Positions 7,001-7,542 of a stretch of DNA of 64,000 bases are shown piece by piece. The DNA is taken from UHGV virus genome UHGV-0010228; one strand, written 5' to 3'. The notes below the pieces were generated by a model. That model ran no database searches. It had not been told where the DNA came from and worked only from the letters and a program-made list of their open reading frames with translations. Source of the DNA: a virus. Made by a program: the position numbers and the translations under genes. Position 1 is the first letter of the stretch, and each line of letters opens with the position of its first letter.

Positions 7001-7159
7001 ACAAGAGGATACTTGGAGGTAAATGGTGTTGAAAATGTAAATTCTTTAACAGATGCTAATTTACTATCGCCAGCAGAATTATTAACACCACTCGGTGTTA
7101 TACATGATGACCCCGATAGAACTGCGATCAAAAAAAGCTTGTTAGATGTCGCAGTATAA
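4004..7159 (+). CDS. Multisubunit RNA polymerase beta subunit, N-terminal part (exon 1). The ORF reads through into a group I intron and stops at 7157-7159.
   Basis: RBS 'aaggagg'. C-terminal region 'SDANCGVNRQMTLEP' resembles the conserved bacterial beta motif '[18 protein letters not shown]'. 'YIYVNGSKKLIGHQFILKP' is reminiscent of 'FIINGTERVIVSQL'. Contiguous with the intron and exon 2. Confidence 0.55.
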   Translation: MLFENYEDWRVYPPQPRIYFPKNSSKNKTAGYGSALFLLTPKTTSSFEFMKDKNVALRMSLYKYYMIETMYKEKIGRKNVILNMTRQMEALYNENNVEKDTTISYIPRPQKKARLKSGNNIIVDLSMWMELYLKYTVTIQNPKEKCRIFIDLLDKLLNDSNYNNYEKLVCIDINSWTNRAADCVMMNRDLLNNPLSILIYAMVKYPDLLNGKLKNFRIYLVNRSSKQIFLFNTKDIIKDNYNKFKSKIKLFKGISISSSETLEGDTNISEGEAKAIAINNYKNKVLKSMKSNLLGNSKNTEIREITDDDELIDSNDDYDEIFDVTKEIEEESDEVKPTDEDSNLFDEMGAELDLDAEALAELDNMIGDIDDVSTDDILNTPVDEVADDLAERVKNNVFIAEFKPKRTSEQEERNREMMDIQAIALNQENIDNAKTKIIDTTDFSDYINSSNVNILKSKYVNFDKDYVEKKMEGDIDNAVACLSGATDKIFITNKEVIDSSDSLNLKRTLKYSLEDEKGNKMTITFDVPIIIDNCYIYVNGSKKLIGHQFILKPLVKTGPDTVQLVTSYNKVFITRDGVVDYISSSIITYMEKNPEKFKCVRGNSSIKNKKYNTALDFTMYAKLFTRFTIGDEEFITGIEEFYDRYNKKYPTKKLKLDKKKIAEKYPISFNKKTGEIRYMKSTESFSDILLSIIDEEDKKAISRIKKKPRLVYVRAKLMGQIFPMALLLMYHEGFASIMKRADIAYQFTDKKSYNKMDKMRYDFLELSDGLVVWERRNMLTSLLMNGLKRLDFTPYTIEELESKDTYRSLLVDLYNGDNSISYKIDQFYDFTIDSITKEILEDMNYPTNLPDLLILAVKMLCDSAYALENNMNNMRIRSNEVIPAIIHKEIADAYNLYRKTSYKKKPVNVSIKPNIIIDKLLSADTNLIEEFSTINPVLEIEKARCVTFKGYRGIQLDRAITLPRRGYDPSMLGIMGISTSSDANCGVNRQMTLEPAITSTRGYLEVNGVENVNSLTDANLLSPAELLTPLGVIHDDPDRTAIKKSLLDVAV

Positions 7160-7542
7160 TACCTTGTGAATTGCGGGGATAATTGATACTTTTTATATAC
7201 TAAATCATTATAGTAATATAATGATGGCGAGGGGTAATTCCTTAGGTATAGTAATAATTATAAAAAGAATATTAAATCCGCATCTAATGCTCTTTATACG
7301 AGAAAAGTTCAGAGACTATCGAAAGCTAGATATCTATCATTTATAGAAATATATAAAATACTATACAATATATAGTATGGATAGATTGAGATAACCAAGT
7401 GAGTAGAGTAGAGCCAAGTTATTGGGTTAGTATATATATGATATTAGTATATAGTAAATCTATTAAATCGAAGCGCAAGGGTTAGATTTTATTTGGTAAA
7501 AGAGTAAGATCTAATAAGATATAGTCCGCGATCACATTGTGG
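7001..7542 (+). ncRNA. Group I self-splicing intron with no internal ORF, interrupting the RNAP beta gene. Boundaries are approximate.
   Basis: Canonical core elements occur in the right order and spacing: P 'gAATTGCGGGg' at 7168-7178, Q 'AAATCCGCA' at 7262-7270, R 'GTTCAGAGACTATC' at 7295-7308 and S 'AAGATATAGTCC' at 7516-7527. P4 pairs tgcgg with ccgca, and P7 pairs gacta with tagtc. Candidate P1 is exon 'atct' (6997-7000) with IGS 'ggat' (7007-7010). Candidate P10 is 'aaga' (7003-7006) with exon-2 'tctt' (7543-7546). Candidate omega-G is 7542. Confidence 0.7.

What the first reader, a model, noticed from the sequence alone, without database searches (positions are those of the whole stretch)
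7001..7542. Group I self-splicing intron interrupting a phage multisubunit RNA-polymerase beta gene
The roughly 380-nt stretch between the two RNAP beta ORFs is not an intergenic spacer. It carries near-perfect matches to all four conserved group I catalytic-core elements in canonical order:
- P 'AATTGCGGG' at 7168-7178.
- Q 'AATCCGCA' at 7262-7270.
- R 'GTTCAGAGACTA' at 7295-7308.
- S 'AAGATATAGTCC' at 7516-7527.
These give the P4 pairing (tgcgg with ccgca) and the P7 pairing (gacta with tagtc).

Other observations agree with an intron:
- The downstream ORF has no ATG and no RBS.
- The upstream ORF runs into the element before stopping at 7157.
- The host gene is interrupted next to the universally conserved 'NMQRQAVP'-like segment (GVNRQM...), the kind of site phage introns favour.
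- There is no homing-endonuclease ORF.

One internally consistent splice model:
- 5' splice site after T7000, with P1 formed by exon 'atct' and IGS 'ggat' at 7007-7010.
- omega-G at 7542.
- P10 formed by 'aaga' (7003-7006) and exon-2 'tctt' (7543-7546).
- Intron length 542 nt, which keeps the reading frame.
This model rests on 4-bp helices and is tentative. An alternative 5' splice site nearer 7100 is possible.
Basis: partly seen in the sequence, partly recalled or inferred. Interest (0 to 1): 0.78.

Follow-up and report, generated by a model that had tools for sequence, protein, structure and literature searches.

The report
Group I intron in phage RNAP beta gene

Summary
The spacer between ORF 4004-7159 and ORF 7537-8724 is a group I intron in a jumbo-phage RNAP beta gene.

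- **Splice sites:** the intron is 7129-7541 (413 nt), with the 5' splice site after U7128 and omega-G at G7541.
- **Protein check:** splicing gives ...HDDPDRTA-M-SYKQTKYMIPV.... Uninterrupted homologues and bacterial RpoB read straight through this sequence.
- **Structure:** P1, P3, P4, P6 and P7 are 96.9% paired across nine same-site introns. Twelve pairs show compensatory changes (0/500 shuffles). P10 follows exon changes, and P8 is a hairpin in every copy.
- **Rfam:** RF00028 misses the window copy, probably because of its long P5 (~100 nt) and P7.1/P7.2 (~150 nt) insertions. It scores same-site homologues at 74-98 bits. Profiles built without the window hit 7118-7553 (E=3.6e-36).
- **Mobility:** the window copy has no ORF. 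A relative carries an HNH endonuclease at the same site, and 98%-identical phages differ in whether they have the intron.
- **Precedent:** PhiPA3, Madawaska and AR9 carry introns in RNAP genes. This is a new member at a new insertion point 17 nt downstream of the PhiPA3 site.
- **Side observations:** this sub-clade lacks P9 and has a hairpin over the 3' splice site. The motif is an insertion hot spot.

Splicing itself is untested.

The parts
4004..7128 (+). Exon 1 of the RNAP beta-like gene (1041 codons plus the first 2 nt, AU, of the Met codon at the junction)
   Evidence: ORF and translation. The exon ends ...HDDPDRTA + AU. Homologues read through this point.
7129..7541 (+). Group I intron, 413 nt, no ORF of its own, 29% G+C
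   Evidence: The splice sites are fixed by uninterrupted homologues and by the RpoB alignment. nhmmer with same-site introns gives E=3.6e-36. Covariation supports the helices.
7542..8724 (+). Exon 2 (G of the Met codon, then SYKQTKYMIPV... to the stop codon); contains the Rpb2 domain 6
   Evidence: Translation. Pfam RNA_pol_Rpb2_6 at E=3.4e-6.
7121..7128 (+). P1 5' strand (last 8 nt of exon 1, ACUGCGAU); U7128 is the splice-site U
   Evidence: Pairs with 7148-7155. All 8 pairs form in 7 of 9 same-site introns. Two positions show compensatory changes that follow codon changes.
7137..7147 (+). P10 5' strand (GCUUGUUAGAU), immediately 5' of the internal guide sequence
   Evidence: Pairs with exon 2 nt 7542-7552 at 10 of 11 positions (7/2000 shuffles reach this). 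The partner changes with the exon in L005 (12/12), L138 (10/11) and L223 (13/13).
7148..7155 (+). Internal guide sequence, the P1 3' strand (GUCGCAGU); G7148 forms the U.G wobble
7157..7159 (+). In-frame UAA that ends read-through of exon 1 into the intron, 10 codons past the splice site
7162..7168 (+). P3 5' strand (CCUUGUG)
   Evidence: Pairs with 7474-7480. Four of the 7 pairs show compensatory changes. RNAalifold also predicts this helix on 19 family cores.
7169..7177 (+).
   Evidence: P4 is 6/6 paired in all 9 introns, with one compensatory G-C/U-A pair.
7178..7274 (+). Extended P5 domain (about 97 nt): long P5a, a hairpin with a GUAA loop (7213-7216), and a conserved GGCGAGGGGUAAUUCCUUAGGUAUAGUAAU segment
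   Evidence: Segment folds give the same architecture in the window, L005, L140 and L142. This insertion breaks the covariance-model alignment.
7275..7282 (+).
7284..7307 (+). P6 (7284-85/7306-07 and 7290-92/7300-02). This is the loop that carries endonuclease ORFs in relatives
   Evidence: Four of the 5 pairs show compensatory changes. The L142 and L138 ORFs sit in this loop.
7307..7318 (+). G7314-C7526 is the inferred guanosine-binding pair
   Evidence: Unique in 64 kb. P7 is 6/6 paired in all 9 introns. The terminal pair varies G-C, A-U, U-A.
7325..7473 (+). Expanded P7.1/P7.2 domain (about 149 nt), including the family motif GAGUAGAGUAGAGCC (7401-7415) and ...AAAUCGAAG
   Evidence: Segment folds. 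The stretch 7396-7526 is 76-83% identical to introns of Staphylococcus and Listeria phages.
7474..7480 (+). P3 3' strand (CGCAAGG)
7482..7514 (+). P8 hairpin (7482-7492/7504-7514, 11 bp) with loop UUGGUAAAAGA
   Evidence: A hairpin sits at this position in all 9 same-site introns, with different stem sequences.
7516..7527 (+).
7530..7544 (+). Short 3' tail that replaces P9. It forms a hairpin GAUCAC[AUU]GUG|GUC that includes omega-G (G7541) and exon 2 nt +1 to +3
   Evidence: Seen directly in the sequence. The same arrangement occurs in L222, L005 and L223, with two compensatory changes. All other same-site introns have a normal P9.
7541..7541 (+). Omega-G, the last nucleotide of the intron
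   Evidence: All nine same-site introns end in G, and all of their 5' exons end in U.

Best explanation
Window 7129-7541 is a group I intron without an ORF. It has P7.1/P7.2 helices between P7 and P3', as subgroup IA introns do. It sits inside the Met codon (AU|G) of the HDDPDRTA-M-SYKQTKYMIPV motif of a jumbo-phage RNA polymerase beta-like subunit.

The gene resembles PhiKZ gp178, the virion RNAP beta subunit. Its second conserved Asp is residue 1036, against 1072 in gp178.

Inferred mechanism, following the standard group I pathway:
1. The internal guide GUCGCAGU (7148-7155) pairs with the end of exon 1 (7121-7128) to form P1, with U7128.G7148 at the splice site.
2. An external guanosine bound at the P7 pocket (G7314-C7526, next to bulged A7313) attacks after U7128.
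3. GCUUGUUAGAU (7137-7147) pairs with the start of exon 2 to form P10, and omega-G7541 enters the pocket.
4. The exon 1 3'-OH attacks after G7541 and joins ...GCGAU to GUCUUAC....

The product is a continuous 1435-codon reading frame.

Shown here: the anatomy, homology, covariation, exact junction, and presence/absence polymorphism. Inferred: catalysis and its order of steps.

The window copy has lost, or never had, a homing endonuclease. It is probably inherited vertically or spread by recombination. Relatives at the same site carry an HNH/NUMOD4 endonuclease.
For: - **Junction.** Ten uninterrupted homologues read ...HDDPDRT(A/S)M-SYKQTKYM(I/V)... across the predicted junction. The spliced protein has no stop codon. 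It aligns without a gap to bacterial RpoB [21 protein letters not shown].
- **Same-site introns.** Eight other contigs carry a homologous intron at the same nucleotide. Every one has a 5' exon ending in U and an intron ending in G.
- **Covariation.** On the nine-sequence alignment, the 32 pairs of P1, P3, P4, P6 and P7 are 96.9% paired. Twelve pairs have compensatory changes. The covariation score is 0.365 against 0.130 for shuffles (0/500). Slid controls give 27-43% pairing.
- **P10 and P8.** P10 follows exon 2 changes. P8 is a hairpin in all nine.
- **Independent structure prediction.** RNAalifold on 19 non-window family cores predicts P3-P6.
- **Sequence profiles.** nhmmer profiles built without the window hit 7118-7553 (E=3.6e-36) and 7161-7526 (E=1.4e-10). 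These are the only hits in 64 kb.
- **Rfam on relatives.** RF00028 scores same-site homologues L197, L132 and L135 at 97.5, 75.1 and 73.9 bits (gathering score 50), and L005 at 38 bits.
- **Core conservation.** 37 of 40 family-invariant core positions are kept.
- **No separate expression signals.** There is no Shine-Dalgarno sequence for a separate downstream gene. The spacer shows no excess of promoter-like sites and no terminator-like site.
- **Mobility.** L142 carries an HNH_3+NUMOD4 ORF in the P6 loop. P0006 (no intron at this site) and P0019 (intron present) are 98% identical.
Against: - Rfam RF00028 finds nothing in the window itself, even at E<=10 on a 1-kb slice.
- My own covariance model, built from relatives, threads only fragments: 7266-7378 at 21.3 bits, E=0.0025 in 64 kb, plus 7458-7527 and 7397-7428.
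- The copy has no canonical P9.
- P5 is weak and AU-rich. Three family-invariant positions differ.
- No transcript or biochemical data exist, so a copy that splices poorly or needs a protein cofactor cannot be excluded.
- PhiKZ's predicted RNAP-gene introns showed no splicing in one long-read transcriptome study (PMC10914365).
Confidence: 0.92

Rival explanations
1. The beta gene is naturally split here into two separately translated polypeptides, as jumbo-phage RNAP subunits often are. On this view 7160-7536 is an intergenic spacer, or a dead intron relic that is never removed.
For: - Gene callers in public data treat the downstream part as its own gene starting at the ATG of KYMIPV (P0019, P0027 and others).
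- The beta gene does end early after the PLAVSARK motif, so splitting of this subunit happens in this lineage.
- Rfam finds no intron in the window.
Against: - There is no Shine-Dalgarno sequence before TTG 7537 or ATG 7564, while 39 of 46 genes in the window have one.
- The break falls inside a codon of the most conserved catalytic motif. A split product would lose SYKQTKY.
- Most relatives encode one continuous protein across this point.
- The spacer keeps a covarying group I core, and its P1 and P10 helices follow exon changes. That is not expected of a dead relic.
Confidence: 0.04
2. It is a genuine group I intron, but it is degenerate. Loss of P9 and large AU-rich insertions may have abolished autonomous self-splicing. 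It would then depend on a phage or host protein, or splice inefficiently as a regulatory brake.
For: - There is no P9 hairpin.
- P5 is weak, and three invariant core positions differ.
- Covariance models cannot thread the copy.
- No splicing was seen for the predicted PhiKZ RNAP-gene introns (PMC10914365).
Against: - 37 of 40 invariant positions and all core helices are intact.
- The P9-less tail is shared by four diverged copies and shows compensatory changes, so it is under selection.
- The gene encodes a catalytic RNAP subunit, so non-splicing copies should be lost. This last point is inference.
Confidence: 0.15
3. One reading: 5' splice site after T7000 and omega-G at 7542, giving a 542-nt intron.
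Against: - It removes 43 conserved codons, including HDD, that every uninterrupted homologue retains and that align to RpoB.
- The 8-bp P1 at 7121-7128/7148-7155 and the 10/11 P10 covary in relatives.
- All same-site introns place the 5' splice site after ...GCGAU.
Confidence: 0.01

Closest known systems
PhiPA3 intron carrying the HNH endonuclease gp210, in the virion RNAP beta-subunit gene (Birkholz et al. 2024, PMC11620839)
   Same: - It is a putative group I intron in the homologous beta-subunit gene of a jumbo phage.
[quoted passage not shown]
- Relatives of the window intron at the same site carry an HNH endonuclease too (L142).
   Different: - The window intron sits 17 nt further downstream, after HDD-PDRTA plus AU.
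- It has no endonuclease ORF.
- It comes from an AT-rich phage (29% G+C) with strong Shine-Dalgarno sites.
- I did not compare the PhiPA3 intron RNA itself, so homology between the two ribozymes is untested.
Annotated two-exon 'viral RNA polymerase beta subunit' of Staphylococcus jumbo phage Madawaska (MW349129)
   Same: - It is the same gene family (36% identity over the junction region).
- GenBank annotates a joined CDS.
- The intervening sequence of about 165 nt has the same core motifs: AATTGCTGG, AATCAGCA, GTTCAACGACTA and AGATATAGTC.
   Different: - The Madawaska intron is inserted after 'HAD|', the PhiPA3-type site.
- It is a minimal form without the P5 and P7.1/P7.2 extensions.
Group I introns of Staphylococcus Twort-like (Herelleviridae) phages and of Listeria phage LPJP1
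   Same: Window 7396-7526 (P7.2 to the P7 3' strand) is 75.6% identical to an unannotated gap in the split 'DNA repair protein' gene of Silviavirus phages. It is 83% identical to a gap in LPJP1. The qdsa001 element scores 42.4 bits on RF00028.
   Different: The host genes and guide sequences differ, and those elements have a normal P9 (alignment).
Rfam RF00028 Intron_gpI; by recollection, the classical subgroup IA phage introns such as T4 td and Twort orf142
   Same: - The order of elements is canonical: P1, P3, P4-P6, P7, P7.1/7.2, P3', P8, P7'.
- The R and S consensus sequences, the U.G pair at the 5' splice site, omega-G and P10 are all present.
   Different: - There is no P2 and no canonical P9.
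- P10 is unusually long (10-13 bp in this sub-clade).
- The window copy scores below every Rfam reporting threshold.
- The subgroup assignment rests on architecture only. Subgroup-specific models were not available.
AR9/PBS1 RNAP gene introns (group II plus a downstream group I; PMC12350094)
   Same: A jumbo phage of a Gram-positive host with self-splicing introns in a multisubunit RNAP gene.
   Different: I did not compare the sequences, and the insertion site is not known to me from the text I read.

Membership tests
Group I intron | Core helices P3, P4, P6, P7 and P8 in canonical order, with the P3/P7 pseudoknot | tested here: met
   Coordinates were mapped. 96.9% of cells are paired, and 12 pairs have compensatory changes across 9 same-site introns (0/500 shuffles; slid controls 27-43%). 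P8 is a hairpin in all 9. RNAalifold predicts P3-P6 on 19 other family members.
Group I intron | P1 formed by an internal guide sequence with the end of the 5' exon, with a U.G wobble at the splice site | tested here: met
   7121-7128 pairs with 7148-7155 (8 bp), with U7128.G7148. The U.G pair is invariant in all 9 introns. Positions 3 and 4 covary with codon changes (Ala GCG, Ser UCG, and others).
Group I intron | Terminal omega-G, and P10 pairing between the guide region and the 3' exon | tested here: met
   G7541 is the last intron nucleotide, and all 9 introns end in G. P10 is 7137-7147 with 7542-7552, 10 of 11 paired (7/2000 shuffles). The partners change together in L005, L138, L142 and L223.
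Group I intron | Guanosine-binding G-C pair in P7 next to a bulged nucleotide | tested here: met
   The 5' strand is G7312, bulged A7313, then G7314-A-C-U-A. It pairs with U-A-G-U-C7526-C7527. G7314-C7526 is invariant in all 9 introns. Its role as the binding site is inferred from the family.
Group I intron | Recognised by the Rfam RF00028 covariance model (an operational test, not a defining feature) | tested here: inconclusive
   The window gives no hit at the gathering score or at E<=10. Same-site homologues score 97.5, 75.1 and 73.9 bits (gathering score 50). The window copy is homologous to them end to end (nhmmer E=3.6e-36). The failure is most simply explained by the ~100-nt and ~150-nt insertions.
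Group I intron | Removal restores a continuous, conserved reading frame | tested here: met
   The spliced ORF is 1435 codons. The junction sequence is identical in pattern to uninterrupted homologues and aligns without a gap to RpoB.
Group I intron | GTP-dependent self-splicing | not testable with these tools
   This needs in-vitro transcription and splicing, or RNA data from infected cells.
Subgroup IA group I introns | Extra helices P7.1/P7.2 between the P7 5' strand and the P3 3' strand | tested here: met
   One or two hairpins plus the conserved GAGUAGAGUA motif lie at this position in all family members. They are expanded to about 149 nt in the window (alignment). Finer assignment (IA1, IA2 or IA3) was not tested.
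Mobile (homing) intron | Intron-encoded homing endonuclease | tested here: not met
   The longest ORF inside 7129-7541 is 41 aa. The same-site relative L142 has an HNH_3+NUMOD4 ORF in the P6 loop. L138 has an unassigned 123-aa ORF on the opposite strand.
Mobile (homing) intron | Presence/absence polymorphism among close relatives | tested here: met
   L135 (intron present) and L136 (absent at this site) encode exon 2 proteins that are 98% identical. In IMG/VR the motif scan reads straight through this site in 34 of 77 relatives; about 20 others are interrupted in or near the motif and the rest were not resolved.
Naturally split RNAP beta gene (two cistrons) | The downstream part has its own start codon and ribosome-binding site | tested here: not met
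   There is no GGAGG-like motif before TTG 7537 or ATG 7564, against 39 of 46 genes in the window that have one.
Intein | The insertion is in frame and translated with the host protein | tested here: not met
   The insertion contains stop codons in the host frames: 7157-7159 in the exon 1 frame, and 7483-85 and 7522-24 in the exon 2 frame.

The most novel reading that the evidence does not exclude
The sub-clade formed by the window, L222, L005 and L223 has replaced P9 with a short hairpin. That hairpin base-pairs omega-G and the first 3-4 nucleotides of exon 2. The same exon nucleotides also form an unusually long P10 (10-13 bp).

The two pairings exclude each other. They could act as a built-in switch. 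The hairpin would keep omega-G out of the guanosine pocket until the first step is done, and P10 would then take over for exon ligation. That would be a distinct way of choosing the 3' splice site in a group I intron.
Probability: 0.3. Interest if true: 0.55.

Novelty: new member of a known kind. Interest (0 to 1): 0.35.

Why it matters
- **Annotation.** The beta-like subunit of this phage is one 1435-residue protein, not a 1051-aa and a 395-aa fragment. Gene callers in public data split its relatives in the same way.
- **Method.** Rfam RF00028 can miss bona fide phage group I introns that carry long peripheral insertions. Intron counts in phage metagenomes that rely on covariance models are therefore lower bounds.
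- **Biology.** It adds another insertion point to a short stretch of the RNAP beta catalytic motif (HDD...KQ) that mobile introns target repeatedly. In PhiPA3, an intron endonuclease at this motif mediates competition between co-infecting phages (PMC11620839).
- **Limits.** The finding opens no new question on its own. The P9-less 3' end is the only part that might teach something new about the ribozyme.

Tried and rejected
- **Rfam on the window.** No Intron_gpI hit at the gathering threshold over the whole window, at E<=10 on 6800-7800, or at E<=0.5 over the whole window.
- **Phage records.** Megablast of 6000-9000 found nothing. Only a 130-nt piece of the intron matches at lower stringency.
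- **14-mer GTCGCAGTATAATA in IMG/VR.** It returned 120 or more loci. None of L006-L125 carries the intron's P1/P3 pattern, so they are all chance hits.
- **Longer gapped pattern.** It found nothing in IMG/VR. Its single metagenome hit is a chance match.
- **First covariance model** (224 positions).
- **Second covariance model** (R1, 178 positions). It threads only fragments of the window intron, with or without filters. It was not usable for a structure-aware alignment. I used MAFFT alignments plus per-helix extraction instead.
- **Weak R1 hits elsewhere in the window** (3595-3756(-), 25680-25750(-), 56189-56289(-), 13033-13086(+); E 0.05-0.26). I judged these to be chance. The nhmmer profiles find no second copy.
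- **MAFFT registers for P8 and P10.** They were inconsistent, so I scored those helices sequence by sequence.
- **Possible second interrupted gene.** I checked whether the DNA polymerase ORF at 61195 is split from 59151-60464. The upstream ORF is a virion structural protein, so it is not.
- **Pairwise blastn of the intron against L005, L223 and L140.** It returned nothing because of how the locus files are stored. I did not repeat it.
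Full report
**What is in the sequence**

ORF 4004-7159 (+, 1051 aa) ends ...LLTPLGVIHDDPDRTAIKKSLLDVAV*. A second frame opens after a stop at 7522-7524 and reads SAITLWSYKQTKYMIPVADSSPVLIG... to 8724. The downstream part matches Pfam RNA_pol_Rpb2_6.

- P, AATTGCGGG, at 7169-7177.
- Q, AATCCGCA, at 7275-7282.
- R, GTTCAGAGACTA, at 7307-7318.
- S, AAGATATAGTCC, at 7516-7527.

R is unique in the 64-kb window (expected 0.09). The S core occurs twice (expected 0.30).

**The splice sites**

I searched with a trial spliced junction region and found 56 relatives. 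Ten of them are uninterrupted and read ...G-V(I/M)HDDPDRT(A/S)M-SYKQTKYM(I/V)(P/S)V.... Joining U7128 to G7542 reproduces this pattern exactly, with the Met codon split AU|G.

The intron is therefore 7129-7541, 413 nt. The spliced frame is 1435 codons with no stop. Against solved structures, the spliced protein aligns without a gap across the junction to bacterial RpoB: lgvihddpdrtamsykqtkymipvadsspvlignkve with f-[35 protein letters not shown].

**Homologous introns at the same nucleotide**

Looking up where relatives are encoded gave eight further contigs with an insertion after ...GCGAU| and before |G. These are L003, L005, L132, L135, L138, L140, L142 and L197. Partial or extra copies are L222 and L223.
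- Lengths run from 229 to 1385 nt.
- L142 carries an HNH_3+NUMOD4 ORF in the P6 loop.
- L138 carries an unassigned 123-aa ORF on the opposite strand, also in the P6 loop.
- The window copy has no ORF longer than 41 aa.

**Structure and covariation**

On a MAFFT alignment of the nine introns, I mapped these helices:

| Helix | Window coordinates |
|---|---|
| P1 | 7121-7128 / 7148-7155 |
| P3 | 7162-7168 / 7474-7480 |
| P4 | 7172-7177 / 7277-7282 |
| P6 | 7284-85 / 7306-07 and 7290-92 / 7300-02 |
| P7 | G7312 + 7314-7318 / 7522-7527 |

The counts on these 32 pairs are as follows:
- 96.9% of cells form standard pairs.
- 12 pairs carry compensatory changes.
- The covariation score is 0.365, against 0.130 for shuffles (0/500 reach it).
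- Slid controls give 27-43% pairing.

P1 follows the exon codons: ACUGCGAU/GUCGCAGU, ACUUCGAU/GUCGAAGU, ACGUCGAU/GUCGACGU and ACAGCGAU/GUCGCUGU. The closing pair of P7 is G-C, A-U or U-A.

P10 joins the nucleotides just 5' of the guide sequence to the start of exon 2. It is 10/11 in the window, 12/12 in L005, 10/11 in L138 and 13/13 in L223, with different sequences each time. P8 is a hairpin in all nine, with unrelated stems.

RNAalifold on 19 family cores from other sites and genes predicts P3, P4, P5 and P6 independently. The unconstrained fold of 7117-7555 has a z-score of -3.2.

**Why Rfam misses it**

RF00028 gives no hit on the window, even at E<=10. On relatives it scores as follows:

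| Locus | Relation to the window intron | Bits (gathering score 50) |
|---|---|---|
| L197 | same site | 97.5 |
| L132 | same site | 75.1 |
| L135 | same site | 73.9 |
| L005 | same site | 38 |
| L136 | related, upstream site | 54 |

The window, L005 and L140 carry a P5 extension of about 100 nt and a P7.1/P7.2 expansion of 110-190 nt. A covariance model I built from 11 short relatives threads only pieces of the window copy. The long insertions are the most likely reason both covariance models fail on this copy.

Sequence profiles are more tolerant of long insertions. Both were built without the window:
- An HMM of the eight other same-site introns hits 7118-7553 at E=3.6e-36.
- An HMM of the 19 family cores hits 7161-7526 at E=1.4e-10.

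Each is the only hit in 64 kb. The window keeps 37 of 40 family-invariant positions. The three differences lie in P5 and at the P7 bulge.

**The rival reading: two genes**

The window's genes use strong Shine-Dalgarno sites (39 of 46). None precedes TTG 7537 or ATG 7564. The spacer has no excess of promoter-like sites and no terminator-like site. I therefore reject a natural split at this point.

**Mobility and context**

P0006 (L136, no intron at this site) and P0019 (L135, intron present) are 98% identical. In IMG/VR my motif scan reads straight through this site in 34 of 77 relatives, including the closest one (L143, 62% identity). About 20 others are interrupted in or near the motif, and the scan left the rest unresolved.

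The window also encodes topoisomerase II subunits, a GroEL-like chaperonin, a DNA polymerase and virion proteins. The nearest isolated phages by this protein are Staphylococcus jumbo phages, Listeria LPJP1, Yersinia phiR1-37 and PhiKZ-like phages.

**Comparison with known cases**

- PhiPA3 gp210 lies in a putative group I intron in the virion RNAP beta gene, inserted right after the two conserved Asp residues (PMC11620839). The window site is 17 nt further downstream.
- Staphylococcus phage Madawaska's 'viral RNA polymerase beta subunit' is annotated as a two-exon join. Its minimal intron of about 165 nt sits after HAD| and shares the core motifs.
- AR9 and PBS1 carry a group II and a group I intron in an RNAP gene (PMC12350094).
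- PhiKZ's predicted RNAP-gene introns showed no splicing in one study (PMC10914365).
- A 17-mer of the R element retrieved 111 viral and 31 bacterial-genome stretches. A profile search of all 142 gave 142 family-core hits at E<=1e-5, some loci carrying two, so I did not count how many loci were hit. The ribozyme family is widespread.

The finding is a new member of a known kind, at a new insertion point.

**Unusual details**

All other same-site introns have a P9 hairpin right after P7. The window, L222, L005 and L223 do not. Instead, a short tail forms a hairpin that includes omega-G and exon 2 nt +1 to +3 or +4:
- Window: GAUCAC[AUU]GUG|GUC
- L222: GAUCAUA[UGAAUU]UAUG|GUC
- L005: GCUCC[GAAAU]G|GAGC
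- L223: ACUCC[AAAAU]G|GAGU

Two compensatory changes support this hairpin. The same exon nucleotides form the long P10, so the two structures exclude each other. A switch that sequesters omega-G is a plausible reading, but it rests on four sequences.

A 7-nt direct repeat, GCGATCA, lies at 7124-7130 and at 7528-7534. I cannot explain it.

**Verdict**

I am about 0.92 confident that this is a group I intron with splice sites U7128 and G7541. I am less confident that it self-splices without help; I give 0.15 to the rival that it needs a protein cofactor or splices poorly. No RNA data were available, so splicing is inferred rather than shown.

Noticed in passing
Loci L196, L198, L199, L201, L203, L207, L209, L213 (about 2400-2980 in each); window equivalent 7115-7555: The roughly 25 nt encoding HDD-x-x-R-x-x-(M/H)-x-x-KQ is an intron insertion hot spot in relatives, with at least four distinct insertion points:
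- after DD (Madawaska, PhiPA3);
- after codon 3 of R-L-G ('ggt|');
- the window's site (AU|G);
- after nt 2 of codon 6 ('gcgat|').

Each intron's guide sequence matches its own exon.
   Followed up: partly
L207 (IMGVR_UViG_3300008503_000168), about 2405-2667 and 2676-2970: Two group I introns lie in tandem, separated by an 8-nt micro-exon 'cacgcgat'. Both exceed the Rfam gathering score (79.7 and 71.3 bits). P10 of the first intron and P1 of the second must both use the micro-exon.
   Followed up: partly
L136 about 2131-2489; also L185, L189, L197, L194, L218: The same beta gene carries related introns at other sites. One site is the STSP|D(A/S)N(C/V)G motif (window equivalent about 6948), and another lies further upstream. 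L218 has three interruptions and L197 has two. The window is uninterrupted at those sites.
   Followed up: partly
window 7530-7544; L005 about 3046-3066; L222 about 172-195; L223 about 2463-2483: This sub-clade has no P9. A hairpin pairs omega-G and the first 3-4 exon 2 nucleotides, and the sub-clade has an unusually long P10 (10-13 bp). Two compensatory changes support the hairpin.
   Followed up: partly
window 7124-7130 and 7528-7534: A 7-nt direct repeat, GCGATCA, spans the 5' splice site and recurs in the intron's 3' tail. The guide sequence GUCGC could therefore also pair with the tail. L222 has ACGATCA at the same place. The meaning is unknown.
   Followed up: no
window 7396-7526; L001 2501-2620 (Staphylococcus phage qdsa001); L002 3001-3071 (Listeria phage LPJP1): The 3' third of the intron is 76-83% identical to unannotated gaps inside split genes of Staphylococcus Silviavirus phages ('DNA repair protein') and of Listeria jumbo phage LPJP1. 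Those gaps are group I introns that the GenBank records do not annotate.
   Followed up: partly
L138 1874-2245 (minus strand), inside the same-site intron: A 123-aa ORF on the strand opposite to the intron sits in the P6 loop. It has no Pfam match. It may be an unrecognised endonuclease or a chance ORF.
   Followed up: partly
window 48094-52503 (-): A 1469-aa ORF has beta-propeller, PQQ and WD40-like repeats around residues 860-1060 and no PHROG match.
   Followed up: no
window 36651-41556, 43438-45474, 61195-63219: These regions encode two topoisomerase II subunits, a GroEL-like chaperonin and a DNA polymerase. 39 of 46 genes have GGAGG-type Shine-Dalgarno sites and G+C is 29%. This fits a jumbo phage of a low-G+C Gram-positive host.
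   Followed up: partly
window 8722-8724 and downstream: The beta-like protein ends shortly after the APLAVSARKVPS motif (the equivalent of RpoB NPLGVPSRMN). The C-terminal part of beta must therefore be encoded elsewhere. In P0036/L138-type relatives, the ORF continues about 230 aa further.
   Followed up: no
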